From the human T2T-CHM13v2.0 reference genome, Homo sapiens, in NCBI RefSeq assembly GCF_009914755.1, contig NC_060928.1: 64,000 bases of DNA. One strand, written 5' to 3'. Below, one piece after another: positions 2,090 to 42,944 of the stretch; position 1 is the stretch's first letter, and each line of letters opens with the position of its first letter. The notes beneath the pieces were generated by a model that saw nothing but the letters and a program-made list of their open reading frames with translations, was not told the DNA's origin and ran no database searches. The position numbers were made by a program, and so were the translations under genes.

Positions 2090-3480
2090 GTGCTCATGAA
2101 ACTTGTAGCCACGAGCATGATGCTGAAATCCACTTAGCAGGAATTTCTGATGTTACAAAAGGTAAACTTCAGGAGTGTCTTCTGAGCAAAGTTGTGTGTT
2201 GTAAGGGGAACATGACTCAGGAAATCTACCTGAAGCTCTTCCCCCATCAGGCAGCATCAGTATTCCAATATAAATGCCTTTTTACCCTCGTGTCCATTAA
2301 GTCTGAACACAGCACTGTGGTTGCAGCCTCTCACCTTGAGTGCTTTCACGAGGCAGCCACATGAGCTCCTTCTGCTTTGCACACTGACCACTGTTGTTTG
2401 CTTATTGGCAAGAAAACAGTGCTGCCTGCCTTAGAAGAATCTGAATTTGCTGTCGTCTGATGCCTGGTGCTGATAGATAAATGGTTGAACAATTGTAAGG
2501 CAGATGTAGCTAGAGCCATAAAACTCCAAGGCTTAGAATACAGAACCCTTGCTGCTTGTTCTTCAAGCTCCATGTGTGCTCCATTGACACTGTTGAAACT
2601 ATTAAACCTGAAGGAGCCAGGCTATACCAAGTGTCCTGTTGCCTGAGGGCAGCTTTTCCTCCATTCCTTCTCTCCACCATATTGGGGAGAAGGAGGCAGT
2701 TAGATTTGGTTCCAAGCCCAGAGGACAGGCCCCTAGGCAGCCCCAGTATCTCGGTACTGGAGCTCCCTGCCTCAGGGCGCAGGACCTAAGGCCCAGCCAA
2801 CTGACTTCCTGACCTTGAGCTTAGTGAAGAAACCTTCCTCATACTTTCCTGAGGCTAGAAGCTTCTGATCCTCACTCCTGTGATATCCACTGCCTCTTGC
2901 TTTTCATTGCCACGTGCCCCACTCTTCCATTACAGAGAAATGGGACTTGAAATTTTTTCTCCTATAGGTAGTTTTGTAAGGGATGCTTCTTGTCATTCTC
3001 TGAGCTGGTAAGAAGTATGTGTACCTTGTCTTACTTGGACGATTAATGTCCTATTTATGAAAGGACTTGGTTCTCTGCAGATATCACTTTATCACGATTT
3101 GAGGGAGCTTAGCCAGTGTCACACTGCTTCCTCTAGTGGAAGCAGGTGCCAATCACACTGGCCTGGGCTTTGCCTACTTCTGCCATTGTTTGATCACTGC
3201 CATCTGGGCCACTGATGGATACAAACTAGGTCACCTTTTGACCTTTGACAGACTCCTTATGGATGCATAAGGAGGTCGTTTTAAATCCAGAGATTAGGAT
3301 GGTCCAATGAGATTTGTCACCACCTATGTGTTCTGGTGGAGATTTTTACCCCAAGGGGGATTTCATAGCATGAGTACCATTGATGGTGGACATGGGTTAT
3401 CATGGTCTTTTCCTCTGGCTCCCACATCCATGGTTCTCAGACCTCAAGATTTCAGTCTTCTCTGTGGGGTCCCTTTTGAG
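2090..3480 (-). pseudogene. Decayed Mx copy, lineage II (G domain to GED)
   Basis: In order: GLRTMDVG (SLRALGVE), MAEVGKAQASVIG (EKEINKAQNAIAG), VTLAKLPQI (LTLIDLPGI), LEEQAARVLYS (LEEPAVDMLHT; ORF 2346..2573), SHVPL (SHIPL), HQKFL (KRKFL). Confidence 0.7.
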
Positions 3481-3589
3481 TGGTGAAAACCTAAGGTCAA
3501 GGACCTGGCAACATGTGAATGCTGTTGCCACTGGCAGTTCCGATATCTGGCAAGCATTTCCCTTCTGTCCTGATCATAGGTTGAGCTTC

Positions 3590-6099
3590 AGACATGGTTT
3601 CCAGAAGATTGACATAGGTTTATCCTCTTTAGGGAACATCCCTGCTTTTCCTTCCTGTGGTGAAATTGGTGAGTTGAGGGATTTGTCCAACTAGGAGAAC
3701 TCCTTGATACTTTATTATGCTGCAGAAGGATGGCGCATAGCCTTCTAGTTTCCTGACAATCACGGGACATGTGACTATGACAGATGTTGCATGTCATTGT
3801 AACTTTCATGAGTGGGTAGTTGCCATATGTGCTGCCCCCCCTTCTTTGAAAGCCATGGGTTCCATCTGAAATTGTTATACTTAATTCCTAAGTCCTGCTG
3901 GAGGAAAGATTTGTCTACAAATGAAAATAATATTTAACACTGCCTGTCATTGTGAGCATCTGAAGTTGCTTCAAGATTGACTCAGGAATTCAACACTGGA
4001 TATTTCTGATCTGTGTTAGTTCTCAGAAATTACGAAGTCCTGAACTTCAGAGAATTCTGGATCAATGTGTACATTCCAGTTAGTAGGGATGATGGATGAT
4101 ACTAATGGAAGTTATTTTAAAAATAACAGAACTATTGCATTGCCTTCTGCAAGCCTTATTGACTTCTGGAGTCAGACCTACTGTGGCATCAGCAAGTCCC
4201 ATTGCTTGTTTCTCATAAGTTAGAAAGATGAGCTGTTCCAGTGGCAGAGTCTCTGAACCACATGTCCATGATCATGGATGTATCCTGAATCAAAATGCCT
4301 GAGCATCTTTTTTTTCCATAGTGCACTTGACTACTAAAATGAGAGGAATGAGTGACGAACACATCAGCCCCTTGTTCCTCCACATATTAGCCTCCCCTTT
4401 TCTGTGCTTTTGGGTGTAGGAACTTTCTTCCTTATCTTCAAGCTATTTTTAACCCATTTATCTCATATTTTAATAAGTACCATATCTTAAGCTGAATGCT
4501 TTCATGGATATTTTGACTTCATGTTCTTGTTCTGGCCACCATCTGCTGCTTTGTCTTCGAAGTTATCAACTGTCTTGAACTTAATTTCCTTCTTGCTCTA
4601 TAAGTTTAGTTTTCTGAAAATGACTGTGTACCTTAGGTGATTACCTTATCCTGTGAGTTCTTGTAGTGGCTTTCTTGCCTGAACTTATAAACTGATAGAG
4701 GGGCTTTATTGAGAAACAGTTGTTTTTTTAAACTGGCTGAAGTGACCTCCATCCGTGTTGAAGGTCATTATGTACTGAACCTGGATATCCTCTGAAGCTG
4801 TGACATCTGTTGTTCCAATTGCCCTGAGGATGCTAAGACCTAAATGCTAGGGGACAAGAGCTGGAACCCCACTTCTATACATCTTCATTGGATGGCTTAG
4901 GCACGACTAGAAATGAGATAGGCAGAGAGTGCTTCCATGGGCAACAGTGCACCTTCTGTGGGCAGACAGGTGGAGGCTGGAAACATGGGGCACAATGCTG
5001 AAACCATCATTCTGCAGTGGCACTGTCAGATGAGCTAACCTTTGGCCCAAACTTTGAGCCAGTGAAGAGTTCTAGGTGGAACACACAGCTGTTCTTTTCG
5101 TCTGGTCTCTAGCCTCTTTGTTTTTCTGGGAAGAAGGCTAAGAAGTCCTGGGGAATGGCTATGAGAAAATAAACCTTGGGCTAGTTTTGTGACCAACTTA
5201 CTGTTGGTCAGTAGAGTTGCCAGAAGGTGCAAACCCTTCCTCCTGCACTTAGGAACTACATGACAATCAGACCTCGCTGGCCAGCTGTGGAGCCCTGAGG
5301 ACTTGCATATCTGTTTGTCTTGAGAGTAAAGCTGGTGAGGATTCAATCATCAGACTTGGTGGGGCTACTTCATCCTCAGCAATGACTCCATCGTAGTTTA
5401 CACCTTTTAGGTGATAGAAAATTTCATACCACAGCAAAAGCAGATTGTCTTCAGTACCTTTGTCTACCAGATGAGTCTGTCAATGTGACTAATGCTACAT
5501 GTGTCAGGGTCTACCTCCTGAGAAGTGGTTAATGCCTCTGTAGCAGCAGGCTGATTGCCCATAAACCACTCAGGTTGTTGTATTAAGGTGGCCTGTTAGG
5601 TGTGTGGGGATCTGATGTGCACATTCATCAGCTCATGACTATCTCCTACCAATTCCTGGTGATGACATTCTGGGCTTTATTGACTTGCTTTCTACTTCCA
5701 AAGCATCTGACATCTCATGTTTAAAGTCCTGGTGAGTGACCTTGCTTCTCTGCTCATATCTGTGTACAAGTTTTTTCAGTTCCAACACCAGCAGACATTG
5801 TGTGACAAGACCATGCATCCTGGAAGAGCCACTCTCCCCATAGCTTTCAGAATGGGGCTCTTGCATGAGATCTGGTCTTTGACGGTGAAAGTGGGGAAGG
5901 TCACATTTTTATGCCTGGAGTCTATGGGGATTCGATGAGGTCAGTGCAGGCATGTACCTTCTCTACCTCCTGGCTCTACAGGCGGTTCTTCATTTCAGTG
6001 TCCCCATTGTTCTCAGCCTTATTGTCATCTCCATTTGGTAGTAGAAGGTTGGTTAGAAAAGGTGAATCACCTTTTGAGATTCCCTTCTGGATGAACTAT
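3590..6099 (-). pseudogene. MX1: MX1-derived processed pseudogene, lineage I (5' part 5395-6099 well preserved)
   Basis: LLLPNGDDNKAENNGDTEMKNRL (MX1 [23 protein letters not shown]); ORF 5639..5866 GLVTQCLLVLELKKLVHRYEQRSKVTHQDFKHEMSDALEVE ([41 protein letters not shown]); KGTEDN..FYHLKG; LATLLTNSKLVTKLAQGL (LAEKLTSELITHICKSL). No introns; many stops and frameshifts; start codon decayed to ATA. Confidence 0.9.
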
Positions 6100-7089
6100 C
6101 CTCTAGTAAATCTGGTGAGAAGGCAACCTGTAAACTGAGTTGGCTTAGTTCCCAGGAATGGGCCTGTGAAGACTGATGCACATGGTTTGTCCCTCCAACT
6201 CCTTGTTAATGTCTTATCTGCTGATGCTGGCCACTGCCTGGAATGTCTTCAGAACCCAGAGTGAATCTCTCCTGCCTGGCTGGGATGTGGTTGTGTTGTA
6301 GTGGGTCCTGTCTGTACACGGGTTCTGGTGTGTTTAATCATGCTTCTGGCCCTGTTGAATTGGTAAACCCCAGAGTAGGGAAATAACTTGGGCACTCTGC
6401 TAGGTGCCCCAGTGAATGAATCTTTCTGTCCCTTTGGACTGTTCAGAACATGGACTAAAGTCTTAGTACACCTTGTAATGTGTGGGTATTTCCACGTAGT
6501 GACAGATTAAATCTGCTCTGGGAACTTCCCTGAAAACTTGCACAGTGCCATGGCTTAGAAAATTCCCCTAACGATGAGAAGAATGTTTCCAGAATGAATA
6601 GTAATCACCCCAGACTTCATGATAGGACATTATTACCATAAGTACCCAAAAAGAAGAGATGCTTCTAGCTCCATAGTCAACAAGGCAGCTTCTCTGGGCA
6701 GCAGGTGCTCAATCTGAGGGGCATGATTCTAAAATCCTTTCCATCCCCTTGTTGTCTGAATGTTTGGTCTGCCTGGTCCCTCCAGGGTAAAAGCCACATG
6801 AACCAGAGCTGTGACATGGAAGCAGCTGCTGGTCTTGCTTCCCAGGTCTTAGCCTTTCAGATTTGTACTGGCAGATGCCTTCTGGTGGAGGTGGTCAGAA
6901 ACCAGAACAATGGCTGCCACTAGGGGGGAGGGTTGAGGAGGTTCAGAGCCGTCTGTGGAAAGGCTTGACTTGGGGGTATGTGCAGGTGAGAAATGTCCTG
7001 CCTCTTGCATCTGTGCTGACCACAGCTCATGAGAGGCAGGGACTTCGTGGTCCCCTGTGAACTGTGAGGCAGCATCACTGGCCTGGAAT

Positions 7090-8350
7090 GAGGATGTTGC
7101 AAATGCTTCTAGTGGCCTGAGTCAGTGCAATGGGCTCTTCAGGGAAGATGAAAATTGTGAGTTTTCCCATCTTTGTTGGCTGGAATGATTTGGATGTGAT
7201 TGTATTTCTACCTTTTGGTGGATAGAACCAAGTAAACAGTCTTCTGGGCCCAGAGAATACCTTGTAGATTTCAGTTGTACACTTAGTTCCTAAAGCCTTC
7301 ACTTGTGTACTCGGCAGTTCTGTGGAGGTTATAGTCAAAGCATTTTCTGAAATCTGAGAAGGAGCCAGACCATGTCATCTATGTGCTTCATGACAACTGA
7401 CTCTTCCAGTGTTTTGCTTTGCTGTTCTATGATAGTCTTGAATATCCTGTGATTCCTAAGTCCTGACAACTTTCATAACATTAATCCTCAAATTCCTATA
7501 TTTTTCTACAAAAAAACCTTTGATCTTCCTAAACGTTTTCAATCACAGCACTCCATTTGCAGAACCCATTATAGAGATTGCTAGACAGATGGTATTTTCT
7601 CCACTAAGGTTTCCTCCCCTTGCACTAAAGCCAACATGTCCTGATCACATGTACTAACTTATCCTAGAGAAGGTTTCTAGGATAAAGCATTAAGTCACTC
7701 TTCCAAAAACACGGTCCATTATCCCCATCAAGGAGTTCACTGTGGGAGCAGACTGCTGCTGGCCTCAGAACGTTGCTGGTCCTGTTTCCTCCATTCATGT
7801 AGCATCTGGGGACTAATGAAAGTGCTCTGTTCTGGATCATCCCATAAACCCATCATTGAGGTCTCAGGCTAAACTGTCCATTTTCTGGCTCTTACCTTTG
7901 GCTGTTGCTGAGCAACTAGGGTAGGTGAGCACCCAAAGTGGTGGTGTACCAACTATACCTCTTAAAGCATGAGCTGCTCTTGAGACTTCATTTCTCACTC
8001 CATTTTCAGATTATTCAAGGAGCCCTTTCTTGTGGCCTAAACCACTCCTACAATGACAAGTTAGCACTAGTGATTAATCATTAGCTGCTTTCTCACTTTT
8101 CCACCACTTGCTGTTACTGAAGTGCTTCGGTGACATTACCATTGTCTTGCTGGGGTCTTCCACGAAATAGGACTTAGGGATGTGTATGACTTAGCTATTC
8201 TGTTTGTGGAATCTTTCTTCAGACACAGCTCATGATAAGCACTTTCCTTTTCCATGTTCTTATGAGTAAAATGAGAGGATAATTCTTTGCAGAACAGTAT
8301 TCTGAATGAGACCAGTATCTCCTTCACGTTGGCATAACAATCCCATCCTG
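7090..8350 (-). pseudogene. MX1: Decayed Mx copy, lineage V (stalk 7240-7680 clear)
   Basis: DQDMLALVQGEETLVE (NQDITALMQGEETVGE), FCKWSAVIEN (FHKWSTIIEN), IFKTIIEQQSKTLEES (TFETIVKQQIKALEEP), NLHRTA, and EEPIALTQATRSIC at the C-terminus (ORF 7075..7338). Confidence 0.85.
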
Positions 8351-8979
8351 AATCTCCAGCTGAGAACTTGACAACTGGAAAGTGCTAATAAGACAAATAG
8401 CAAACATGAGCAATAGTCAAGTTCTTGAGGCTTAAATCCTTACCTCTGCCTGTTACCGGGATTACTATGTAAAATCTTTTGAGGCCACCATTAACCTCTA
8501 ACAATTAAATAAGAAACACTTTGCTCCTAAGTCTATTGGTAAATTTTCCCAGAGTGAGGCTCTGTCTGAGCTGGCGGTTGAGGCATGCTCAGCTTGGGAC
8601 AGGAGCCCATGTACCTGCTTTGTTTCCTCCTAGGCACAAAGCAGCTGTAGCTGCAGCCCTAGGGCCTTGGCAGTTTCCCACTGTCCATTTAGTGTAGACA
8701 TTGGAAGTGGGGGCATTGTTCAAATAAAGGGTTATAAGTGATACTGACAAAATGTTCTTGGCATATACTGTATGACAACACTGGCTGGAATCTTATCATT
8801 TGGCCATTGAAGGGTTGGGCCTTAACTGTATCTCTTTTGAAAAGGTTTGTGTTAGAATTTGCCAGATATGGCCTGCACCACTGCTGGGTGCCACCTCGCA
8901 GAACTGCTGCATAAATCATGCCCTGCTCCATTCTCCCCTCACCTGCCACCCATCAGCTGTAGGCCAATGCAATTTTCCC

Positions 8980-10130
8980 TTTGCACTTCAAGTTGTACGT
9001 GAGATGTCCAAGGGCGTAGCAACATTATGAGGATTGTGTGCATCCACTCAAAACACGATAGATGCACATCTGTTTTCTGCTTGGATTTGTCTGGCTGCCT
9101 TTAGTTAACCTTTCTAGTGCAGTTTGCTCCAGGAGAAGACTGGAGTTGTCCACGCTGAAGAGGGATGGCAGAGAGGAACTCGAATTCCTGCAACTTGGGG
9201 ATGGATGAGTCTTCATGATTCAACCTGAAAGCTGATTGCCTTGTGGTCAGTACACTGGGGACAGAAGTTCTGCTTTGGGTTGTGAGGTAGAGCCTTGAGT
9301 GGCATTTCATCTTCAGGATCTTGGCCTTGACTCTGCTGCTATGACTGGTCAACATGTTTTGACACTCAGGTTGGAAAGTGAATGCTCCCTTGTAGGGAAC
9401 CCTGTACACGTTATAGTTCATGTCAGTGTATAGATGTTATCCTCTAGTTCGAAAGACAACCATGAATTTCTACCAAAACCGTATTTTAAAGCATGATTCC
9501 CAAGTGGGACTAGTTTATCTCTCCCTTATCTTAGATTTTTGGAGGACCTCCCTCTTTGACCCAAACTTGTCAGTTAGGAGTCAGCACTCAGGATGAGGCT
9601 TACATTTTCTTTCCTATTTTGATGTAGTTGCTTACTCATGCCACACTACAGGCTCCCTGTAGTGTGCTACTGGAATGGCCTTGGCACGCGACATGTGTCT
9701 TATGAGAATCCCCCACTAACTATGACATGGAGAATTTTATGCAGGTAGTCCAGGCTGCTGGCCCTAAGAGACAGACATTCTTAGAACTTTCTTCTAAGAG
9801 TTGATGATAGCACCACCCACCCCAGCGTCACCCAGGCCAGGGCTAGTTCTAGTGGAAGCTGCTGCCAAGTATGCTTGGCTTTGGCTTTGCCCACTTCTGT
9901 GGCTTGATAATTCCATGATCTGGGACACTGCTGGATATGACCCAGGTCATTGAGTCTTGCTTGCCCAGTGTATTTGTTGCTTGTGAGTCCATATGGGGGA
10001 TCATATAAAAGCCAGAGTTTGGGATGATACAGATGAGGTTTCTCATCACCAGATAGTTCTGGTGGACCTGTTCAATCTTACCTAGGGAAGACATATTGGA
10101 TGTGGATCATATGGGCATTATTGACTGGGG
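8980..10130 (-). pseudogene. Decayed Mx copy (lineage II G-domain piece plus lineage VI stalk/GED)
   Basis: ORF 9101..9421: VKAKILKMK..SRLYL..DSSIPKL..LSAIPL versus AKSKIEDIR..IRLHF..DSSMEEI..ISSHIPL; LLTDKF versus FLIDKV. Confidence 0.6.
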
Positions 10131-10164
10131 CCCTGGGTCACCATCAGGGATTTGACAGAAAGAG

Positions 10165-10292
10165 CATAAGGACAAATAACTAACGCCTGTGGGGCCCAAC
10201 ACCTACGCGACGGGTGGATAGGTGCATCAGACTACCATGGCACACATTCACCCATGGAACAAACCTGCATGTCCTGCACATGTATCCCAGAA
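10165..10292 (+). mobile_element. L1PA (about L1PA8-13) 3' UTR fragment
   Basis: ataggtgcatcagactaccatggcacac...aacaaacctgcatgtcctgcacatgtatcccagaact is the L1PA 3' end. Confidence 0.75.
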
Positions 10293-11109
10293 CTAGCTGT
10301 ATGGCTACTATCTCCTCACTCATGTTCCAGGGCTCTTTCCTTTGCCTCCAAAAAGGTCACCAGGTCCAGCATGGAGATGGCAAGACCCAGAGAGACCATG
10401 TTTTTATAGTCCTCTATTGTTACTTGACTATGCAAAGCCTGCTGAGAAGGGTTCCAGGTATTTCCATTCCTCCAGAGAATTCTATGACCCCATCCCTGAA
10501 TGTCAACAGTTTCTGTCAGTTTGAGCTTCTTGACCTGTGTACATGTTCTTCACTCAAGTATCAGGAAACTGGAGCAACTCCCATTTGAACATATTGGGAG
10601 ATTCCTTCCCACTGTGGGCCTCAGATACATTTTGTTTTGCAGGTTCTTGCACTACCTTACTGGGATGGGTTGTTTTCCTTTGGAAAAAATTTCTTCACAA
10701 ATCTGAAAAAAATCCAGAGGGTGGGAATCATCTCTGCCTTTCCTCAATATCAGCATCTGATTTGCTGATAACCAATGTGTCATTTCCCAGCTTCCAGGAT
10801 GTCCTGGCAACTTAGCTATGCATCTCCCAGGACCTGCAGATCACAGGGCAACAGAGGCTGTGATAAAATCACCGGGAGCTCCTGAGGTGTGGAGGACATG
10901 GAACAGGAGAAATGGAACCCAAGATCTCCTGAAATTCTTTTCCACCAACCCATTGCTTTTGTACCAGAACAAAAGTGGTTTGTCAGTTGCCATGGCAAAC
11001 ACCGAGGCTTAGGTGACACACAACAGATTGTGTCTCTTAGGACTAAAAATGTCAGAAGCCTGAGTTTTCCCCAAAGCACAGTCCCAATGCCATACTGCGG
11101 GGAGCGTTC

Positions 11110-14100: not shown

Positions 14101-14490
14101 ATTGTACTGTTCATCACCTGCTGCTTTTCATTGGCATACACCTCACTACATGTTAGGGGAGGAAATGGTATGTGACATATTTTGTGCACATGTAGTTGAT
14201 TGAGGGATGCTTTTCTCTATCCTCTGAGCTCATAGGAAAGGTGTGCATCTCATTTTAATTGGACCATTAATGCTTCTTCTATTGAAAGTACTTCTCACCT
14301 CTGTCACTTCCTTGAGCTCCCATAATGGGAGGGAGCCTTGCCAATGTCACATCGCTTCATAGAGTGGAAGTTGATGCCAGATGTGTTTGGCTTGGCTTTG
14401 CCCACTTCCATGGTGTATGTTGGACCCCCATGCTGGATACAACCTAAGTCATCCTCTGACCCTGGGCTGTGGACATTGTGTGTCCGTATC
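11110..14490 (-). pseudogene. Decayed Mx copy or copies (G domain 13560-14490, neck/stalk 12000-13330, GED tail 11110-11240)
   Basis: MEVGKAKPNTSG (ORF 14304..14546; EINKAQNAIAG), PILHLKT (VFHLKK), DIVRI (DMVRL); GED tail shared with 33310-33410 and 40270-40400. Confidence 0.55.
11610..11929 (-). mobile_element. ERV1 LTR fragment, MER67/MER31-like
   Basis: Minus strand starts tgatcaagattctttccttggccaac...ggcccatctgtgtacgtccttgtaaaatccagttttagcaaagaaccc, matching my recall of the MER67-type 5' end. A paralog lies at 33640-33970. Confidence 0.65.
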
Positions 14491-14649
14491 AGGGACACTT
14501 CTAAGCCTGGGATTGGGATGGTCTTTTGCTTGTTCCCACACAGCATGAAAATGCTTTAATAGAGGTTATAATACATAGCAAGAATAGCAAGTGCACACGC
14601 AGACATCATAGAACACACTGTAGGTGAATAAAGAATTGATACTCATCAT

Positions 14650-15680: not shown

Positions 15681-15929
15681 AGTATCTTTAGATAGTAGTA
15701 GCTTTAGAGACACTTGTTGATCTGTGGGTTTTGTCTGACGGGTTTAGGGTTTGTCTGAGAATACATTTTAGGAGCATGTGCTTCACGCAGAGTGTATCAG
15801 ATCCCGGTCCTGGATGAAAGGGCATCCACCTGGGTTGGCTATTATCCATAGTGCCTGGCAGATAGGTGGTTTCCTACACTTGGGCATATTTCTGCTTGAA
15901 TCTTCAAATAGGAAGTGCAAGGCTGAAGG

Positions 15930-17620
15930 CAGATGGTTTGCAGCCAGCTGCCTCCTGAGCTTTCCTTATTGACACCTTAGGTACCTCCTAGAGATGTGAC
16001 AGCTGCAGACAGGGTGAGGACAGGGCACAGCATGGCCAGCAGCAGCATGGTCTCTGGGCAGACAGGGCCCATCTGGAGACTGGAGCAGAATTTTGAATCT
16101 ATTCCAGTCTCTCCCAGTGTCACCCTGCCAGAGATTCACTGACCCTATCAGGTATGGGCAGCAGCACAGGGGTGTTAGCATGGTGGAAACTGTTCTTCCC
16201 GCCTTCCTGGTCTTAACTCTTTCCTAGCTACTGTTTTGTGTTGATCTGGGGAACGTGTTTCACACATGGCAGAGTGATGTCAGAGAAAACAATTTGCTCA
16301 AGCTTTGTATGAAGCAAATTTGGTGTGCGTGGAGAGAAGGGGCCTATCAGGGCGGTTCTGCTGCCGTTCAGTCTGGTGTGAAGCAGGCGCCTCACTGACA
16401 GCTCTGAATGTCAGAACTCCCCTCAAGCCTCACTTGTTCTGGCTGGAAAGTTGGTGAGCATGAAACTATGCTGTGGGTGTCTACCTTCCTTGGACAAATG
16501 AGCCCAGAGTGCTATGTCAACACTGGATTGAAAAGGGAGTCTGATGTTTTCAGCTTCAGGTCTTATTCTGGGGAAGTTAAAATCGTCGTTAGATGCATGG
16601 AAATAGTTTTCCAGATACAAAGGTGTTTTTCCTAAATTCATCTTCCTCTATATGCAGAGGTGCTTTAACGTAGACTGTGATCATATTTCATGTAAATACA
16701 GCTCTTAACATTGTAGTCGGCTGGGTCCACTTGACTTTAATTGCAGGCTGTTTCTTCTACCAACCTTGGATCTCAACTGATCAGACAATCGTGGGGATGT
16801 TCCGTTCAGCTTTGCTGCTTGTGCAGCTTTCTGCTAATGACTTTGGTCTTTGATTTTGCAGAGAGCATTTCATTTTACAGCATTCTATTCATTTTTCCAG
16901 TGTGCACAAAAAATGATCATACTCCAAGAAGGGCCTGAGGTTATTGAACTTGCACATCCTATGTCCAGGAAGCAAAGCAAACAGCCACCAAGGGATGAGA
17001 TGAATTCTTGACTGACCATCACCTCCTTTTCAGGTGGAGGCACTCACTTGGATTGGTACCTGGGCATTGTCTTGCAGTGGCTTCAGGTGTGAAATCTTCC
17101 AGTTCCCTTTAGTCCGATTTAGTTGTGTGCATCTACTCACCTGTGAAAACATGGCCTGCATATGAAACACTCACCTCGCTGTACCTGGAGATCATCTGAG
17201 TCAAGATTGCCATGTATTTGGGGATGGCTTGAGCTGGAAGATCTAGGTAGAAGTGAGTATGGACTTCTGTGCTCCTGTGGGGGACCAAGAGAAATGTGAC
17301 CATATAGAATATTTAAATCTTCCACAGCTATGCCCTGGAAAAGAATGGTGAGAAGTGGGGTATGGCACATTTAGCTTGTGTTGTCACCATTTTCTCTAGT
17401 GTGCTAAGCTTCAAGTCGGTGACAAGGTCAACTCAAAGGATTACGGGGAGGTCTCCGGGCCTCGTATGCTGCTGTGTGGAAGCTCAAGTCTCTGGACCAC
17501 AGAGGGTTTCCAGGGCTCTCATCTTTTTGTGTGCCCCACCCCCATCCAAGAGACAGAGCTTGGGCCCATCCTTGGCTGATCACATATGTTATACCTGCTC
17601 TAGACCTTGTCTCTGTCTCA
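15930..17620 (-). pseudogene. Decayed Mx copy, lineage III
   Basis: DQPRMGPSSV (DQSSGKSSV), ALETLCG (VLEALSG), LKLSTL (LKLKKL), LDLPA (IDLPG), CLHLKR (VFHLKK), cagagaccatgctgctgctg (QKAMLQL codons). Confidence 0.65.
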
Positions 17621-18749
17621 TAAAACCTATGAACTCAACGTCATTTTTTTTTCTACACTTGTGTGTGTCTGTTGCTCTCTAGGGGCCTCCTTGGATGAAG
17701 GAGTTGTGTATGTAGACTTGTCTCAGGTTCCTACCTCTCCTGTGGTTAATATACTCCAGAACCTTTGTGTCCCCAGTTGCACTCTGGCACAGTCCATGAG
17801 GGATGAAGTACTGTAGGAGAGGCTCTGCACTAGACATCTTTGAAGAGATACATGTGGTTTGGTCTTCTAGTTCCTGCCTGGAATGTCTGTGGAGCCCACC
17901 GTGAAGTTCCCCAGCTTGGTTCTGATGTGCTGTATTGGTTGTGTTCTTCCTGGAGAGTGGGTTCTGGCAAAATTGACAAGTCTATGGGCTTTGTTCATCT
18001 TGTAAGTCTTAGTGGGAAAAGGACAAGGGCAATGTCCTTTAGAACATCTGTGAAAGGCTCTATCTCTGTTCTTTTCCCTCTGGACTGTTGGGGAGAGCAA
18101 GCATGACCTCTCCTGAGTCACAGGATACCTTATAAGAAGCAGGCATCTCTTCTGGGTCACAGTTTGCTATGGAAACTTTTCCACAAATGTGATATTCAGG
18201 GCACTGCTTTGGAATTCACCATGAGAGAATAAAGGACTGAATGTAGAATATGTGGTGAGTATGCCTTAGGCTTCTGAGATGTTTCATTTTTTTCAAAGGT
18301 AAGAGAGCAGGAAGCTTCCAGCTCCACGGTCACCAATGGCACCTTCTCTGGGCAGGAAGGACTCAGGATTTAAAGGGTACAATTCTGAAAGCATTCCTGT
18401 CCCCGTATTGTCTGAGTTCTGGGCCTGCCTGTCTCCTCTGGGGCAAAAGCATGAGCCAGAGCTCGCTCCTTTGATGTGGAAGCAGCTGCTGGGTCTGGCT
18501 GTCCAGGTCTCAGCCTACTTCAGAATGCTATATGCAGATGTCTTCTCTTGGCTCAGACCACTTCCAGAACAGTGGCTGCCCATGGAGGAGGTTCACAGCT
18601 GCTTGTGAAAAGACTTACATGTACGTGTGTGTACGTGTGCAGGTGGTTAGTGTGCTGCCTCTGCCAGCAGCTGTGCTGACTACGACTCCTGATGAGGAAC
18701 CTCCTGGTCCCCTCTGAAACGGGAGCCCTGTTGGAGCAGTGTAGCCTCT

Positions 18750-20620
18750 GGGTGGAGGATGTTGAGAATGCATCCGGGGTCTTGATCAGTTTAGTTGGTT
18801 GTTCAGGGAAGGGGCAGTCTGAGAATATTTCTTATATTGGCTGGAATAATTTGGATGATTGTTTCTACCTTTACTGGTGGGTAGCATTCAGTAAAGATAT
18901 CTAAGTCCTGATAATATTTTGTGGTGAGGTTTTCATTGTAGACTTAGTCTCTAATGTCTTCACGTTTGGACTTGATGGTTCTGTGGAAGCTAAGAAATTA
19001 TTTTCTGAAACATTTTTGAAAATGAACTGGGCCGTATCCTTCCATGTGTGCTACACATCAGCAGTTCTTACAGTGCTTTTACTGTTTTATGATGGTCTCA
19101 AATTGCCTGTGATTCATAAATCTTGGCAGCTCTCTGCCAAAATACTGATTGCCTAATTTCTACAGTTTTTGATATAAAACTTCATAATCTTCTTAATGCA
19201 GAACCCATTATGCAAAACAGACGAGTGATTTTTTTCCCCCTGTGGTTTCTTCACCATGTATCAAAGCAATGATGTTGTGACTAAATACGTGAAAGAACAA
19301 GCATTGAGTCACTCTTGCCAATAGACAGTCCAGATCGCCCTAATCGGTGGGGTTCATTGTTAATCCAGCTGCTCTTCAGTTTCCTCCACTCACACAGCAC
19401 CTGAGCATTTATGGGATCAGGACACATATTTTCATTGGGAGCAGCAAGGAGCTGTCATCTTTTAGATCAGCCCATAGACACATAGGTGGGGCCTGAGGGG
19501 TTTAAGCCCTGTCCATTTCTTGGCTCTTGCCACTGGCTGTTACTTGGTACCTAGGGAGGTGAGCACCCCGGGTCAGTGTCTATCAATTACAAGCAGTTTT
19601 CAAAGCATGAGCCTCTCATGAGACTTAGGAATTCTCATTGCCATTTGTTTATTTTTTTCAAGGAACCTTTCACCGAGGCTCAGACCACTTCACAATAACA
19701 AGTAAGCAATAGTGACACGTCATATTTCACCTTGTTTTGGTGTAGCTGCTCCCACCTACTTTGATCCTGGCTTCTCTTGGTTGTTGAAGGTATTTTGGTG
19801 ACATTACCACTCTCCCATTGTAACCAAACACAGATCAGCCACTCACCATTTGCAGACTCCAGTGGCAAGAGTGAGGTATGGTAGAGTGGTTTTTTATTAA
19901 CCAAAACTAGTAATGGAGAACTGGCCCGATTGCAATCCAAAGTAGCCACTTGGCCTTTCTGGGGAGAAGGCGGTAAGGGTTTATGAAGGGAAAACTTGAT
20001 AGGGAAGGCATTCATGCAGGAGTTGTGCTGAGTACAAACGCTCTGTCTCATTCCAGTGGCTATCTCAGGCTCAGTCCACCTGGAGCATGGGCTGGCATCA
20101 TGTCAATGGTGGGAATGCTGAGTAGCTGCCTTGAGGTAATCACAAATTTTAAAGTTGGGCCTCCATGCTTGGCCTGTCTGTCCAAAGATGAGCTCCTGGA
20201 ACTGCTAAGTAAGCACATAATTAGATACTAGCATATAGTGAAATGCAAAAGAAGAATATGGTGGGAAAGGGAGAGACATGGAGTCTATTTTAAGATTGAG
20301 GGAAAAGACTTCTGTAGTTTGCTCACAGGTAACATCTTGAGACTAGGGGGAAGAGGCAAAAAGCTTGTGTTGGAAGTCAACCTGCTTGGTTACATTGTCT
20401 TTCTCCAAAGGAGACTCAAAGATTAGTATGCTTTCCCTTCCTTCTTGGTGGTCTGTTTATGGAATCTTCCTTGGTAGACACATCTCATGACCCCTTCCCT
20501 TCCTCCACTTTGCATGAATATGAGAATAACTGTCTTTGCAGAAACTATCTGGGAAGAGACCAATGGCTTTTTTACATGAGCACAACAGTCCCATCCTAAA
20601 TGCCACAGCGGACAACTTTA
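18750..20620 (-). pseudogene. Decayed Mx copy, lineage V, paralog of 7090-8350, interrupted by an LTR
   Basis: Minus strand ggcagagagctgccaagatttatgaatcacagg at ~19105-19138 gives GRELPRFMNHR (GRELPGFVNYR); colinear with 7090-8350. Confidence 0.8.
19819..20394 (-). mobile_element. Solo LTR (ERV1, MER4-group-like; family not resolved)
   Basis: Terminal inverted repeat TGTAACCAA...TTGGTTACA; AATAAA on the minus strand near 19895; absent from the paralogous site near 8140. No clear TSD. Confidence 0.7.
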
Positions 20621-21199
20621 CTGCCAACTAGAAATCGTTGATGAGGTGCTCAAATGGGAAAGTTACAGAACTGTGATGATCTGATCAAAACTCGCAAGGC
20701 TGAAACAGTCATCTTTGTCTGTTCTGGGGGTTACTGTGTGGAAATCTGGGGCCATGCTAGACCTACAGCAGTTGAATGAAATATCTCTACTTTTGGGTAT
20801 AGTTGCAAGTTTTCCAACAATGGGCCTCTGCAGCTTCTTGTCCACATCATGTAGAAGTGAAATGGGGTCTTTGCTCCAATGGAGGGCTGCAAATGTTGCT
20901 CGTTAAATGCCCTTGGCATACACTGCAGGAAAACATGGGTTTTGAATCTCTTCATTTGTTTTAATTAAGGCAATGAGCCTTGCCTGTATCTCTTGGGGAA
21001 AATGTTTTGAAATTTGGCCGTATGGCCTGTGCTACTGCTGAGTGACACCCTCCAAACATGCCACATCAAGCATCATTGCACCATTCCACTCTCCCCTTTC
21101 CTACCGCCAAGCATCCATAGACTAGCACATTTGGGTTCCTTTGGTGTAGGCCCTTGTGGAAGATTTCACATACAATGTGGGGTCCAAAGCAATGATGTC

Positions 21200-22050
21200 T
21201 TGTGCCTCTCCTAAAATCAGATGTCAAGCAGTATTTTGTTCTGCATTTGGGTTTGTTTGGCTACATTTAGTTAACCTCCTCTGTAAAGCTTGATCTAGGA
21301 GGTACAGGGGTTGTGAACCTGGAGGGAAGAGGGGCAGAGAGGAGCCTGCCCTCTTGTATCGAAAGGCAGATTGAGTCCTCATGATTCAACCTGGGGAAGC
21401 TGACTGCCCTGCCGTCAGTAAGCAGGGACAGGAGTCAAGTTCAGCATCTACTGGGCTGAGGTAGAAGCATGTGGCTTTGGCCCTCAGGATCTTACTCCTG
21501 ACTCCAGTACTGTTCCTTTTCAGTGGATTATCTTGGTGTACACTAAGGTTTGGTGGGGAAAGGGGCCCAAACAGCAAACGCAAATGTGGGAGAAAATACT
21601 GACTTGACATCCAATTTTGGGGGAGGCACAGAACATCATTACTTTGGACTTCACATTGCCTGGCTCACCTTAATGTGTAGATTGTATCTGGCTTAAACGA
21701 TTACACATGGTGCTAAAATACACGAGAATCATTTTCGAAAGCATACGTCCTCAATGGGACTTGAGTTTCTCTCTTTCCATCATCTTAGGTAGTTGAGTGA
21801 TGACCTCAATAGTGACTTCAGTCAGCCAAGTGGAACTTGGCACTGGTGACAAGCCTCATGTTGGGCTGGCTTTGTGGTTTCTTTCATTCCTGCTGACAGG
21901 CTTCTTGTTCTGCCTGATTGAAGTGACCTCCACACCCATACCAGTGCTTCATGAGTATCTTCCCTAAAGAGGACATGTTAAAACTTATGTATATGGTCCA
22001 TATTGGCAGCTATAAATCTGATTCTAGAATTTCTTTGAGATGGTATGACA
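21200..22050 (-). pseudogene. Decayed Mx stalk/GED, lineage VI, paralog of 8980-9830
   Basis: Colinear DNA homology (tcatgattcaacctg, caggatctt, catgagtatcttcc) with the 9 kb copy. Confidence 0.55.
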
Positions 22051-22399
22051 ACCACTTGCCCCCCTGTTCACAAACTAAATGAATGTAATAAAGGTTGGAA
22101 GAGAACAGCCTCTCTGAAGAGATCTGTTCCCTCTCACACAATCCTTTACTGAAGTGGAAATGGGTTGTCTTTATTACCCGCAGTCAGTAGCTTTGAGTGA
22201 AACCTTACAATTGAGACGTGTCTGCATGAAAAATGGTAAATGTGTGGTGTCCTGTACTGTGGTGGATTTCTCTCGAACTGCCTGTTGACTCAGCCTCTGA
22301 TTCCTTATATGGGAGGATCTGGGTGCTACTGACCTAAGGAGTGGGCAGCAGAGGAGAGGCCATTCCTGTAACTTTGACAGGGTTGTTCATCATGGGACA

Positions 22400-23880
22400 A
22401 CATCAATACAGATGACTTGTCTGCTATGTTGAGTAAGCTGTCGTCATGGGCTATGTTCTGACCATGGGGTTTAAGCAGGCATGGTGGCTGACCCTCAAGA
22501 GCAATGCCTTTCAGAAGGATGTGGCTGGCCCCCGCTTTCCTTTGTGGCTACTGTTCAGTGAGGCCAAGAGAGGGACCCTTTAGAGGCATGGCAGAGAAAG
22601 AGTAGCACTGATCTGGAACCTTCTGGTTGTTACACATTCTCAGAGGTGACCATTAACCTAGAGCATGTCACTAATGAGCTGCCCTGCCACTCGTGGGCCC
22701 TGAGCTACATTTGAGGGGAGAGAATGGTCAGAAATTGAAGGAGTGAATCTGAATCTTCTGTCAAGGATCCATCAATGGATAAGTGTACTGTTCCCTGAAG
22801 GTCACCCATTCTCACCAACCCCAGGGCGTGTGGTTGTCAGGTACCTGCCTTGCAGGTGGGATGGAAGAGAGCACAGAGTGATCCAGCATAGAGCGTCATC
22901 AGGGTGTGATGGGGACGGAGAGCTCTAGGCTTTCCCCAAGCAGATAGGGGAGGCTTGTTTTATTCTTGCCTGGGATCCTGAATTTTGTCATGTTGCCCCT
23001 CAGCTAAATAGGACCTTCCCGTTCTGAGGAAAGCTTTCTTTGAGGCATGCTTGTTTCATTCTGCTGTCACAAAAAACTGGGAAATAGGAAAAATATCCAG
23101 AGAAATCACTGTGGCCTACATCAGAGTGGAATGAATGCTGAGGTCTTGGTTTTCTGTTCATGTGGTTATTTTAATGTCAGTGAATGCGTTTCCAACATTG
23201 TGCTTGTCCCTGTGTTTAGGGGGAAGAGGATTTAAAGTCAACTTATTACCATTTTGTTTTTGTAAGCTGTTTGTTTTTAAACTTCTGTCTACATTTCTCA
23301 TAATCATGGGAGAATTAAACATTTCTTGTGTAAAGATATGCTTAATCTGTCCTCAATATTAAAAATTTTCGGGCTCATAGATGGTAGTGAAGCCTGACAG
23401 AGAAACGCCACCTCCCCACTGGATCCTCTGCAAATTGAAACATTAGCACAGAATGTGTCTGAAGTGGTGACCTACCTGCAGGTCTAATCAGAGGTGCACG
23501 ACTGGACTTTGCACTGATGGACGAAGACAGCCTTGGAGGCTGTCTTCCACGCACACAGAAGTCTAGGTGGGTTTTGTGTGACCTCATCCTGCCAGCTTCG
23601 GATGAGATTATAAATGCTGCCAACTGTCTTTCTGGTGCTCTTAATCTTTACATTCCCAAATGGACTTATTCTCATTAGAATGCACTCGGGATTGTTTGTT
23701 GTTGACCATCCTGTTTCCCTGGAAGAATTTTCAGCTTTAGTATTTTCTCTGGAAAAATCTTCAGAATATCAACTCCGTGGGCAGTGTTCCTTATGAGCCT
23801 GCGTTTATCCCCAAGGCTAGCACAACCTGGGCTCTGAGATCTAGGTTTTGCGGCCACAGAGGATTATCCAATCATTGCTT
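22400..23880 (-). pseudogene. Decayed Mx copy, lineage IV, paralog of 14650-15680
   Basis: Colinear with 14650-15680 at about 8.2 kb offset (ttaatctgtcctcaatat, aaatggacttatt, gcacaacctgggctct). Confidence 0.6.
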
Positions 23881-23987
23881 TCATTAGTAGTGAATTTAGT
23901 GCCTTCATGGTCATAACTGCAGACACAGCCATAGCTAACCTGCAGGGTCTTTATTTTACTGCTTTTAGGCTCTCTGCCTGAGAATAC

Positions 23988-24214
23988 GTTTTCTTTTTTA
24001 ATTTTACTTTTAAGTTCTGGGATACATGTATAGAATGTGCAGGTTTGCTACATGGGTATTCATGTGCCATAGTTGTTTGCTGCACGTATCAACCTGTCCT
24101 CTAGGTTTTAAGCCCTGCGTACATTAGGTATTTTTCCTAATGCTCTCCCTCCCCTAGCCTGAGTGAGAACATGCGGTGTTCGGTTTTCTGTTCTTGTGTT
24201 AGTTTGCTGAGGAT
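23988..24214 (-). mobile_element. L1PA8-like 3' fragment with internal deletion
   Basis: T-rich head, then ttttaagttctgggatacatg...ctaggttttaagccc...tgagtgagaacatgcggtg; absent from the paralogous site near 15770. Confidence 0.85.
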
Positions 24215-24349
24215 TGCTTCACCCAGAAATGTATCACATCCTGATCCTCGAAGGGTGATCCACCTGGGTTAGTTGTCCTTACCATTCCCCAGCAGACATA
24301 TGGTCTGTTTGCATGTTGCTGCTTGAACCTCCAAATGCAAAGTGCAGAC

Positions 24350-25500
24350 TTGAAGGCAGGAGGTGGAAGCCAGCTGCCCCTGACCTTGTCTTGTTGCCTT
24401 TGGAAACACCAGAGATGGGACAGCCCAGACAGGCTGAGGACAGTGCACATCATGGTCGTCAGTGGCAGGTTCTCTGGGCAGCCAGGGCCCCTGTCTGGAG
24501 GTTACAAGAGGATTTTGAATATGTTGTAGTTGCCAATGTCATCTTGCAGACATCACTGAGTGAGATGAAAAGCATGAGGCAATGATCTCTCTGGGTTGAG
24601 GGTGTTACTGTGGCTCATGCCATCTTGGTTTTAACCCCTGTCTGGTTCATGTTGATGATTTTCTGGGGAGCATGTTTCAGCTGTCTTGGATTAAAGAGGC
24701 TCTTGGATTTTTTTCGTGACCACTGCCTCTGGTCGTTTCTGCTGGAAGTGCCTTAGAGTGAATAGACTGCCCTAAGAATCAAAGTCTGCATATAACAACT
24801 TACATGTATTCCAAGAAGGTCATAAGGTTGCTGACCTTAGGCATAATCTCCATGAAGCAAGGCCAGTTGTCAGCAAGGGATGAGATTATTTCTTGTTTGA
24901 TCACAACTTTTCAGGTGGATGCGCTCACCTGATCACTGCTACCTAGCATTGTCTTGGAGGCTGGGTCCTTTGGTGGGATATCTTCCTCTTACGTCAAGAG
25001 GCTGTTTTAGGTTTGTGCTGCTTTCTAGCAGTGACGATGTTACCTGTGTTTAAACACACTGTACCATATCTGGAGACCTGAGTCAAGGTCAACACATATC
25101 TCTAGGTAGGCTTATATAATCAGGAAGATCTAGATGGGAGTGTGAGTAAGCATCGTGGTATCTCAGGGGGACCTGGAATAAACAGAAGTTTCCTCAGCTC
25201 TCAAAGCTGCATGCTAGGAAGATAAGATGGGCCTCGTGAGCTGAGACAAGGTGCATTCTGTCCATTTCCCTTAGTGTGCTGAGCTTTAAGTCAGTGACAA
25301 GTTAGACTCGGAAGTATGTGGAGAGGGAGCAAGGCTTTGTATGCTGCTGTGTGGTAGCTCAAACCTCTGTATTCCAGGGGGTTTCCAGGGTTCTTTGTGT
25401 TTTTGTCCTGAGAGACTGGGCATGATTCATGGCTGAGTGGATGACGTACCTGCTCTTGACATCGTCTTGATGCTATACAGCCCGTAGGTAGAAGGACCTT
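24350..25500 (-). pseudogene. Decayed Mx copy, lineage III, paralog of 15930-17620
   Basis: Colinear homology (ggaagatctag, gtgctgagctttaagtcagtgacaa, tatgctgctgtgtgg). Confidence 0.6.
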
Positions 25501-26882: not shown

Positions 26883-26970
26883 CATAGAAAAATTCATCAA
26901 CATGACTTCAGACTTCTTGTATACATCATAGAAAAATTCATCAACGTGACTTCAGACTTGTTGTATACAT
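26883..26970. repeat. 44-bp direct tandem duplication
   Basis: catagaaaaattcatcaac(a/g)tgacttcagactt(c/g)ttgtatacat twice, 2 mismatches. Confidence 0.95.
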
Positions 26971-42931: not shown

Positions 42932-42944
42932 TGTCTCCCTTTCT

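What the first reader, a model, noticed from the sequence alone, without database searches (positions are those of the whole stretch)
2090..25500. At least five or six deeply diverged paralog lineages: was the cluster once protein-coding?
Neighbouring units (II at 2-3.5 kb, I at 3.6-6.1 kb, V at 7-8.3 kb, IV at 14.6-15.7 kb, III at 16-17.6 kb) barely resemble each other in DNA, while each has close relatives 8-25 kb away. Lineage-specific residues are shared between sister copies (e.g. KLSTL and LDLPA in lineage III; EVGKA in II). Such deep divergence with retained motif order implies great age, a locally high mutation rate, or a phase of rapid coding evolution.
Basis: inference. Interest (0 to 1): 0.75.

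Follow-up and report, generated by a model that had tools for sequence, protein, structure and literature searches.

The report
Old duplicated block with dead MX1 fragments
This stretch of human chromosome 4 is a very old, decayed, repeatedly duplicated block of non-coding DNA that carries broken pieces of one processed copy of the antiviral gene MX1, and nothing suggests these pieces ever worked as genes.

Summary
The raw observation holds. Neighbouring stretches of 2090-25500 look unrelated by BLAST, each has a 65-75% identical relative 8-25 kb away, and the quoted peptide words exist on the minus strand.

The "units" are not five or six Mx paralogs. Only 1,921 of 23,411 bases (8%) derive from MX1, as four truncated fragments. 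The rest is locus-specific spacer DNA.

The window lies inside a direct-orientation array of about 154 kb (window -20 kb to +134 kb). Its units are irregular, 12-17 kb long, and contain two older sub-modules (M and N). M and N are the only real deep paralogy between units II/I, IV/III and V.

All 13 Mx pieces come from one intronless MX1 (MxA-lineage) retrocopy. They keep the 3'UTR and AATAAA signal, and they share deletions, breakpoints and stop codons.

Divergence among copies is the same at all three codon positions (0.45/0.39/0.41), against 0.22/0.20/0.45 for MX1 versus MX2. So already broken, neutrally decaying fragments were amplified. Distal units lack the Mx piece cleanly, which makes Mx a passenger rather than the founder.

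A weak third-position excess among shared changes leaves a short early coding phase formally open. Age is inferred from divergence only, because no other mammal could be examined.

The parts
1..64000 (-). Part of a ~154 kb direct-orientation array of irregular 12-17 kb units. The array runs from about -20 kb to +134 kb in window coordinates. The strand given is the sense of the Mx pieces.
   Evidence: Tile-family profiles hit every 2 kb bin from -20 kb to +134 kb except about 98-102 kb and 128 kb. From -60 to -20 kb and from 134 to 164 kb at most 2 hits fall in any 2 kb bin. 1095 of 1169 tile matches are direct.
5382..6098 (-). Mx piece G: MX1 cDNA about 2-847 (start codon to mid GTPase domain), truncated at about 819 and joined to module M. 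Not annotated in RefSeq.
   Evidence: nhmmer. tblastn of MX1 exon peptides, exon Eb E=5e-12.
7283..7680 (-). Mx piece F: MX1 cDNA about 1111-1533 (middle domain), ending at a breakpoint shared with piece E. Not annotated.
   Evidence: TAG at codon 432 shared with E.
13241..13475 (-). Mx piece U13: end of the MX1 3'UTR (cDNA about 2199-2443) with a decayed polyadenylation signal. Not annotated.
   Evidence: Sequence read.
18943..19513 (-). Mx piece E: MX1 cDNA about 897-1534, sister of F. Not annotated.
30864..31678 (-). Mx piece D: MX1 cDNA 2 to about 819 (the profile extends to 878). Corresponds to RefSeq LOC100422637.
   Evidence: This piece is cleanly absent at the same junction in distal units.
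35281..36365 (-). Mx piece C: MX1 cDNA about 1226-2443, including the whole 3'UTR, AATAAA and an A-rich remnant. Not annotated.
   Evidence: Sequence read.
38149..38823 (-). Mx piece B: MX1 cDNA about 126-832. Corresponds to RefSeq LOC100422638.
39255..39398 (-). Mx piece Y: MX1 cDNA about 1-153, a small extra 5' fragment. Not annotated.
40381..41587 (-). Mx piece A: MX1 cDNA about 437-1810, the longest contiguous piece and the only one that runs uninterrupted across cDNA 819. Corresponds to RefSeq LOC100422639.
   Evidence: ORF 40553-40846 matches Pfam Dynamin_M and solved human MxA chains.
4538..5391 (.).
   Evidence: The profile of tile 4501 gives 27 direct hits over the array. Cross-unit hits I-III (E=2e-81) and I-V (E=2e-27).
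3115..3998 (.). Other N copies in the finding lie at 9842-10143, 14343-14595, 15357-15689 and 23575-23847.
   Evidence: The profile of tile 3001 gives 26 direct hits and that of tile 15001 gives 22. II-IV cross hit E=8e-10.
889..2622 (-). RAF1P1, a processed RAF1 pseudogene inserted once into an array unit. It overlaps the start of the finding.
   Evidence: Tiles 1001-2001 have only self hits. 11 RAF1 exon pieces on C3 match at 75-87% identity, contiguous in the window.
19819..20395 (.). Interspersed repeat inserted into one copy of segment T after its duplication.
   Evidence: At least 40 scored copies genome-wide at 69-76% identity. No counterpart in the sister copy at 7.8-8.3 kb.
42588..49445 (-). 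HERV-K-like provirus that interrupts the array (observed only).
   Evidence: LTR pair 42588-42929 and 49090-49445 at 83.1% identity. Retroviral Pfam domains in 5 ORFs.
56666..61096 (.).
   Evidence: Tile map.

Best explanation
A single MX1 (MxA-lineage) mRNA was reverse-transcribed and inserted, minus strand, into this part of 4p16.1. Judged by divergence, this happened at or soon after the origin of eutherian mammals.

The locus was already being built, or went on being built, by repeated unequal tandem or segmental duplication of ordinary non-coding DNA. That DNA holds two older sub-modules (M and N), a MIR-like element and a KRAB-like retro-fragment.

Duplications with breakpoints inside the retrocopy spread truncated Mx pieces through the proximal third of an array of about 154 kb. 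The pieces cover cDNA 1-819, 437-1810, about 900-1533 and 1226-2443. Everything then decayed neutrally (CpG observed/expected 0.16).

Shown here: the origin of the Mx pieces, their intronless state, their single origin, the neutral pattern, the extent and orientation of the array, and the absence of Mx from the other segments.

Inferred: the age, the order of events (array first, Mx as passenger) and the duplication mechanism.
For: 1. Origin from MX1:
- 13 of 13 nhmmer matches to an MX1 pseudo-cDNA are on the minus strand.
- tblastn with MX1 exon peptides gives 26 minus-strand and 0 plus-strand hits at E<=0.01.

2. The copy was processed:
- Exons abut without introns, for example E0/Ea/Eb/Ec at 6094-5541.
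- No tile matches an MX1 or MX2 intron.
- The 3'UTR, AATAAA and an A-rich remnant are kept.

3. MxA lineage: at sites where MX1 and MX2 differ, every copy sides with MX1 more often (for example A 196 to 66, F 69 to 13).

4. One insertion:
- A 13-19 nt deletion at cDNA 511-540 is present in all 4 copies covering it and absent from MX1 and MX2.
- The breakpoint at cDNA ~819 is shared by G, D, B, and the one at ~1533 by E, F.

5. Neutral decay:
- Codon-position differences among copies are 0.453/0.392/0.405, against 0.224/0.196/0.446 for MX1-MX2.
- Difference from the conserved state at non-CpG G/C sites is 0.337/0.334/0.336.
- Stops are shared at codons 93, 267 and 432.

6. Most of the DNA is not Mx:
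- A profile built from all copies finds no further piece in 224 kb.
- Of 127 tile-family profiles, only 19 hit the cDNA, all over known pieces.

7. Mx as passenger:
- In units at 52 kb, 69 kb and 112 kb the M module and segment S3 abut, or nearly abut, where D carries Mx 1-819.
- Mx-bearing units are mutually closer in flanking DNA (p 0.37-0.39) than to Mx-less units (0.40-0.51).

8. Relative dates:
- RAF1P1 is single-copy and 75-87% identical to RAF1.
- A TE is present in only one of two sister T copies.
Against: - Shared derived changes (MX1=MX2, most copies differ) are more frequent at third positions: 19/215 against 15/595 overall, 12/198 against 10/543 without CpG (p=0.006), and 11/156 against 5/203 at G/C sites only (p=0.04). 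A short coding phase of the stem copy would produce this. So would parallel G/C>A/T decay, or the MxA/MxB gene conversion reported by Mitchell et al. 2015.
- The age rests on divergence alone. No other mammal could be searched, so a locally raised mutation rate is not excluded.
- A 5' cDNA fragment without a poly(A) tail, sitting cleanly at a canonical unit junction, is not what simple retroposition gives. The test for flanking duplications was inconclusive.
- The flank tree does not make the three Mx-bearing units an exclusive clade. Only D+G is supported (94/92), and no fork is starred.
- Alignments at 55-70% identity are error-prone, and codon phase comes from a MAFFT keeplength alignment to a pseudo-cDNA that lacks a few junction codons.
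- The origin of modules M and N and of segments T and S1-S5 is unknown.
Confidence: 0.75

Rival explanations
1. One reading: the cluster was once a family of functional intronless Mx genes. These diversified under coding (possibly positive) selection into five or six lineages and then died.
For: - Third-position excess among changes shared by most copies.
- Protein-level similarity to MX1 is still detectable in pieces up to 65 aa long.
- One 98-aa open fragment reaches the Pfam Dynamin_M cut-off.
Against: - Only 8% of the finding and 9% of the window is Mx-derived.
- Every piece is a truncated fragment, with breakpoints shared between copies.
- Divergence among copies shows no third-position excess (0.453/0.392/0.405).
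- Stops and a deletion are shared.
- The P-loop word GKS[ST] occurs in none of the Mx pieces. DLPG survives in one piece and TKPD in two.
Confidence: 0.05
2. A younger array in a mutation hot spot: duplication happened well after the eutherian radiation, and an unusually high local substitution rate makes the copies look ancient.
For: - No cross-species data could be obtained.
- The HERV-K-like LTR pair is only 83% identical.
- RAF1P1 is only 75-87% identical to its conserved parent.
Both values are on the diverged side.
Against: - The ordering is coherent with ordinary clocks: array units 55-70%, a TE private to one unit 69-76% to its genomic relatives, RAF1P1 about 80%, LTR pair 83%.
- Copies of the interspersed repeat at 32180-32905 are 79-91% identical to their relatives in the flanks, which is not extreme.
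- CpG depletion (0.16) and GC content (0.44-0.45) are ordinary.
Confidence: 0.1
3. The Mx retrocopy founded the array: a single retrocopy plus its flanks was the first unit, and the distal Mx-less units lost it later.
For: - Mx pieces and their flanks are about equally diverged between the same units. For G versus D, the Mx part is 65.7% identical and the flank 66.5%.
- All divergences are near saturation, so the order of events is hard to read.
Against: - At least three distal units lack the 5' piece with the same clean boundaries.
- Mx is confined to -16 kb..+42 kb of an array spanning -20..+134 kb.
- Modules M and N are repeated two or three times inside each unit and are more diverged than the units. 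This points to duplication rounds older than, or independent of, the retrocopy.
Confidence: 0.1

Closest known systems
Human MX1 (MxA) gene, chr21, and its paralog MX2 (MxB)
   Same: The pieces are 62-73% identical in DNA to MX1 exons in cDNA order, including the 3'UTR. The ORF at 40553-40846 aligns to solved MxA chains 3LJB, 3SZR, 5GTM and 3ZYS.
   Different: The pieces have no introns and no intact frame. Each covers only part of the cDNA, and they show no purifying-selection signature.
RefSeq MX1 pseudogenes LOC100422637, LOC100422638 and LOC100422639 (from the annotation supplied with the finding)
   Same: My pieces D, B and A coincide with them.
   Different: Six further MX1-derived pieces in the window (G, F, U13, E, C, Y) and three in the upstream flank carry no annotation row. 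Four of the six lie inside the finding. No paper in the searched library names these loci.
Tandem arrays of intronless genes, such as the USP17L/RS447 megasatellite, also on 4p16.1 (recalled, not tested here)
   Same: An intronless gene-derived sequence repeated head to tail in one orientation.
   Different: As I recall it, that array has a regular 4.7 kb unit, highly similar copies and open reading frames. Here the units are irregular (12-17 kb), only 55-70% identical, mostly non-genic and without frames. Tandem Repeats Finder reports nothing at score >=200.
Ordinary L1-mediated processed pseudogenes, for example RAF1P1 in this same window
   Same: Spliced exon order, 5' truncation near the start codon, and a retained polyadenylation signal.
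   Different: RAF1P1 is a single copy. The Mx retrocopy was cut and multiplied by later duplications of its host DNA. No convincing target-site duplication was found.

Membership tests
MX1 processed pseudogene (retrocopy) | DNA and protein similarity to MX1 exons | tested here: met
   13 nhmmer hits, E from 2.4e-07 to 1e-110. tblastn gives 26 minus-strand and 0 plus-strand hits at E<=0.01. Pfam Dynamin_M match. PDB MxA match.
MX1 processed pseudogene (retrocopy) | Exons contiguous, no intron sequence | tested here: met
   Adjacent exon matches abut in G, D, B and A. No tile matches MX1 or MX2 introns.
MX1 processed pseudogene (retrocopy) | 3'UTR, polyadenylation signal and poly(A) remnant at the 3' end | tested here: met
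   UTR homology extends to cDNA 2432-2443 in C, U13 and Z2. C reads AATAAA followed by an A-rich stretch; U13 has AACAAA. The poly(A) remnant itself is weak.
MX1 processed pseudogene (retrocopy) | Target-site duplications flanking the insert | tested here: inconclusive
   Local alignment of the two flanks of D scores 9 against a null mean of 10. B/Y scores 16 against a null of 9.6 +/- 2.1.
MX1 processed pseudogene (retrocopy) | Parent is MX1 rather than MX2 | tested here: met
   All 9 copies tested share more MX1-specific than MX2-specific states. The UTR matches MX1 only.
Functional Mx / dynamin-family gene | Open reading frame covering the GTPase, middle and GED domains | tested here: not met
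   The longest Mx-frame open stretch found is 98 aa. There are stops in every copy, and no copy covers the whole cDNA.
Functional Mx / dynamin-family gene | Purifying selection (third codon positions diverge fastest) | tested here: not met
   Copy-copy differences are 0.453/0.392/0.405, against 0.224/0.196/0.446 for MX1-MX2.
Functional Mx / dynamin-family gene | GTP-binding motifs kept | tested here: not met
   The word search finds no GKS[ST] inside an Mx piece, DLPG only in B, and TKPD only in B and A. The motif definitions are recalled.
Tandem repeat / macrosatellite | Head-to-tail copies in one orientation | tested here: met
   1095 of 1169 tile matches are direct. All module M and N hits are on the + strand relative to the window.
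Tandem repeat / macrosatellite | Regular period and similar copies | tested here: not met
   Spacing of the same segment is 12.0-25.5 kb. Copies are 49-67% identical in the S4-end segment. TRF reports no array at score >=200.
Interspersed transposable element (for the non-Mx segments) | Copies elsewhere in the genome | tested here: not met
   Queries 28500-30500 and 14600-17650 hit only this chr4 locus. Exceptions are one private TE at 19819-20395 and a ~100 nt MIR-like element at 27959-28060. The tool skips very common words and works at BLAST sensitivity, so old families could be missed.

The most novel reading that the evidence does not exclude
The founding copy may have been, for a short time in stem eutherians, an expressed intronless MxA-like retrogene under purifying selection before it was broken and multiplied. 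The third-position excess among changes shared by most copies would be its trace. Separately, a ~154 kb, roughly 100-Myr-old one-orientation array with no Alu in the 64 kb examined might be kept for a non-coding reason rather than being inert.
Probability: 0.07. Interest if true: 0.6.

Novelty: new member of a known kind. Interest (0 to 1): 0.22.

Why it matters
This result mainly tidies up the annotation.
- It shows that the 'Mx pseudogene cluster' on 4p16.1 is one dead retrocopy carried along by an old segmental array, not a lost antiviral gene family.
- It adds six unannotated MX1-derived fragments in this window.
- It gives a worked example of how a mosaic repeat can be mistaken for diverged gene lineages.

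If the retrocopy's age holds up, it is a fossil sample of the MxA mRNA from near the MxA/MxB split. That could help polarise early changes in MxA, including in exons later homogenised by gene conversion.

Tried and rejected
- Translating long stretches for Pfam failed because of stop codons. I used stop-free ORF references instead: 129 ORFs >=80 aa over the whole window, then 122 ORFs of 52-79 aa in 2700-25500.
- Iterating nhmmer from the MX1 pseudo-cDNA (5 rounds) found no more than the first 13 hits.
- Transitive mapping of tiles to cDNA coordinates suggested that segment S6 was the Mx 3' part. The S6 family profile does not hit the cDNA and S6 does not hit copies A or C, so I dropped that idea.
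- Union-find clustering of 200-nt bins collapsed neighbouring segments into one component and was useless.
- A long target-site duplication suggested by a MAFFT alignment did not stand up to a shuffle test.
- Independent multiple retropositions were rejected because of shared lesions and breakpoints.
- Origin of the spacers from MX1 introns was rejected.
- No proper dN/dS (codeml) was run; codon-position counts stand in for it.
- The script budget ended, so the K-family copies of the KRAB-like fragment and the M/N sub-unit tree were not analysed further.

Full report
**What the window is.** The window is human T2T chr4:10,230,001-10,294,000. It has no N, GC is 0.38-0.48, and Tandem Repeats Finder finds no array at score >=200. 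The held genome could be searched. I fetched the MX1 and MX2 loci on chr21 and 160 kb of flanks.

**Check of the observation.**
- Self-BLAST gives 34 non-self pairs at E<=1e-10, nearly all 65-75% identical.
Offsets are: II (3358-3726) +25.5 kb; I (5602-6121) +25.6 kb; V (6658-7474) +11.7 kb; IV (14649-15618) +8.2 kb; III (15779-17519) +8.4 kb.
- The quoted words KLSTL, LDLPA and EVGKA occur 3, 3 and 4 times, always on the minus strand and always in homologous copies.
- With nhmmer on 1 kb tiles, 1095 of 1169 non-self matches are in direct orientation. Most of the 74 inverted ones belong to a younger interspersed repeat.
- So the repeat structure is real and far beyond chance.

**What is Mx and what is not.**
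- I located the MX1 coding exons by comparing the MX1 and MX2 loci. The in-frame cores give 661 residues; I recall MX1 as 662.
- tblastn of the exon peptides against the window gives 26 hits at E<=0.01 on the minus strand and none on the plus strand.
- nhmmer with a pseudo-cDNA (exon cores plus 3'UTR, 2444 nt) gives 13 hits in 184 kb, all minus.
- A profile built from MX1, MX2 and all copies, run over 224 kb, finds the same 13 and nothing beyond 41.6 kb.
- In the window these are G 5382-6098, F 7283-7680, U13 13241-13475, E 18943-19513, D 30864-31678, C 35281-36365, B 38149-38823, Y 39255-39398 and A 40381-41587.
- That is 5,847 bases (9.1% of the window). Inside the finding it is 1,921 of 23,411 bases (8.2%).
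- D, B and A are the three RefSeq MX1 pseudogenes. The other six have no annotation row.
- Family profiles built from each of 127 tiles were run against the cDNA. Only 19 tiles hit it, all lying over those pieces.
- Pfam scans of 129 ORFs >=80 aa (whole window) and 122 ORFs of 52-79 aa (2700-25500) added only a KRAB match.

**The Mx pieces come from one processed MxA-lineage copy.**
- Matches to successive exons abut with no intron, for example exons E0, Ea, Eb, Ec at 6094-5541.
- No tile matches an MX1 or MX2 intron.
- Homology runs through the MX1 3'UTR to an AATAAA followed by an A-rich stretch.
- At sites where MX1 and MX2 differ, all nine copies tested side with MX1. Counts are G 70:15, D 72:33, B 79:22, A 196:66, X 42:16, F 69:13, E 96:27, C 108:40 and Z1 76:16.
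- Mitchell et al. 2015 (PMC4687636, passages read) infer that MxA and MxB split at or just before the origin of eutherians. The retrocopy is therefore no older than that.
- All four copies covering cDNA 511-540 lack 13-19 nt that MX1 and MX2 both have.
- Copies A, C, E and F all have a 6-11 nt gap near cDNA 1467.
- G, D and B all end at cDNA ~819; E and F both end at ~1533.
- Independent insertions would not share these features.

**Test for a coding past.**
- Each copy is closer to MX1 (62-73% identity) than to other copies (50-64%). This is what neutral copies radiating early from a slowly evolving parent should show.
- Differences between copies by MX1 codon position are 0.453, 0.392 and 0.405 (about 2,120 comparisons each). 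For MX1 versus MX2 they are 0.224, 0.196 and 0.446.
- Measured against the state conserved in both MX1 and MX2, non-CpG G/C sites differ by 0.337, 0.334 and 0.336, A/T sites by 0.285, 0.220 and 0.284, and CpG sites by 0.49-0.61.
- Stops are shared: codon 267 in G, D, B (TGA/TAA/TGA, from CGG); codon 93 in D, B, X (three different stop codons); TAG at codon 432 in E and F.
- One result points the other way. Among 810 columns where MX1=MX2 and at least three copies are present, 34 carry a change shared by most copies: 10/293, 5/302 and 19/215 at positions 1, 2 and 3.
  - Without CpG the counts are 6/257, 4/286 and 12/198 (third position against the first two, p=0.006).
  - Among G/C sites only they are 11/156 against 5/203 (p=0.04).
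  - Parallel G/C>A/T decay in three of four copies, or MxA/MxB gene conversion after the copy left (reported by Mitchell et al.), can produce such sites. So can a brief coding phase of the stem copy. I cannot separate these.
  - The sites are not clearly clustered in the converted exon (9 of 34).

**What the rest is.**
- Tile profiles hit almost every 2 kb bin from -20 kb to +134 kb. They hit essentially nothing from -60 to -20 kb or from 134 to 164 kb.
- The array is therefore about 154 kb long, in one orientation.
- A given segment recurs every 12-17 kb in the distal part. In the proximal part, where extra local duplications occurred, spacings reach 22.5-25.5 kb.
- Reading one unit upward in window coordinates gives S6, S5, N, S4 ending in M, S3, S2, T, IV (with N), III (starting with M), then S6 again.
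- Profile searches reveal an older layer:
  - Module M (400-650 nt) links the end of S4 in unit I, S6 in unit V and the start of unit III (E down to 2e-81). It has about 27 copies.
  - Module N (300-500 nt, carrying EVGKA) links unit II and unit IV (E=8e-10). It has 22-26 copies.
- Queries with S4 and with III+IV find only this locus in the genome. The tool works at BLAST sensitivity and skips common words.
- The unit also contains a ~100 nt element with about 16 relatives elsewhere at 73-82% identity. It is MIR-like by size, but its identity is not established.

**Mx as passenger.**
- Mx pieces occur only between -16 kb and +42 kb.
- In the units at 52 kb and 112 kb the end of M and the start of S3 abut exactly where unit D carries Mx 1-819. 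At 69 kb about 120 nt separate them.
- In flanking DNA, Mx-bearing units differ from each other at 0.37-0.39 of sites and from Mx-less units at 0.40-0.51. The tree supports D+G (94/92) but does not make D, G, B an exclusive clade.
- I read this as insertion into an array already under construction, followed by more duplication with breakpoints inside the retrocopy. This order of events is inferred, not shown.
- A 5' cDNA fragment without a tail at a canonical junction remains unexplained.

**Relative dates.**
- RAF1P1 matches 11 RAF1 exon pieces at 75-87% identity and is single-copy.
- A TE at 19819-20395 sits in one of two sister T copies and is 69-76% identical to at least 40 genomic relatives.
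- The provirus LTRs are 83% identical.
- All of these are younger than the unit duplications.
- Per-copy divergence of about 0.30-0.31 raw (about 0.4 after Jukes-Cantor correction, my arithmetic) is comparable with what I recall for the oldest recognisable mammalian repeats.

**Literature.** Searches for 'MX1 pseudogene' with 'chromosome 4', for MX1 with 'processed pseudogene' and 'tandem array', and for the LOC names or 'Mx pseudogene' found nothing relevant. RAF1P1 appears only as a GWAS landmark and in one unrelated paper (listing seen).

**Verdict.** This is an ordinary genomic fossil, well characterised here. The coding hypothesis is not supported. Interest is low.

Noticed in passing
window 10319-10549 (-): A 77-aa open fragment matches the Pfam KRAB box (E=4.1e-05, 23.5 bits against a cut-off of 20.4). 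It reads like KRAB A and B boxes joined in one frame (B box judged from a recalled consensus), which would mean a spliced KRAB zinc-finger retro-fragment. It lies in an array family with about seven copies, roughly one per unit (63028-63359, 75189-75460, 91549-91844, 119349-119847, 131436-131954, -15021..-14782). The other copies no longer read as KRAB. The only other genome hit is on C2 at 55% identity.
   Followed up: partly
window 42588-49445; locus L019 (-60.0..-56.2 kb): A HERV-K-like provirus on the minus strand, with env, integrase, RNase H, RT and protease Pfam matches in broken frames and LTRs 83.1% identical. A related provirus 100 kb upstream is 77-84% identical to it. Observed only.
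   Followed up: no
window 1-64000: No Alu-like match anywhere in the 64 kb when tiles were searched against 100 kb of the Alu-rich MX1/MX2 loci. CpG observed/expected is 0.15-0.16. This fits the 2% masking in the supplied annotation. Recognisable later insertions add up to roughly a fifth of the window.
   Followed up: partly
window 27959-28060, 13568-13690, 37100-37222: The ~100 nt MIR-like element inside the unit is 76-85% identical between units, while the DNA around it is 65-70% identical. This could be chance, low mutability or constraint.
   Followed up: no
window 21167-21664: A ~500 nt stretch matches its own reverse complement (nhmmer E=5e-26). It is a large imperfect palindrome inside segment T.
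   Followed up: no
window 56666-61096: A local 1.7 kb tandem repeat (copies 69-72% identical), related to unit III. Each copy carries a ~400 nt interspersed repeat (57957-58351, 59660-60112) that has at least eight relatives in the MX1/MX2 loci.
   Followed up: no
window 32180-32905, 54438-54693, 24009-24220, 10148-10293, 62106-62417 and flanks: A ~680 nt interspersed repeat (the only long stretch masked by NCBI) occurs about eleven times in the 154 kb array at 72-91% identity, in both orientations. It also occurs in the MX1/MX2 loci. Its family was not identified.
   Followed up: partly
window 889-2622: RAF1P1 is only 75-87% identical to the RAF1 exons, so it is itself an old processed pseudogene. 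Bases 2090-2622 of the finding belong to it.
   Followed up: yes
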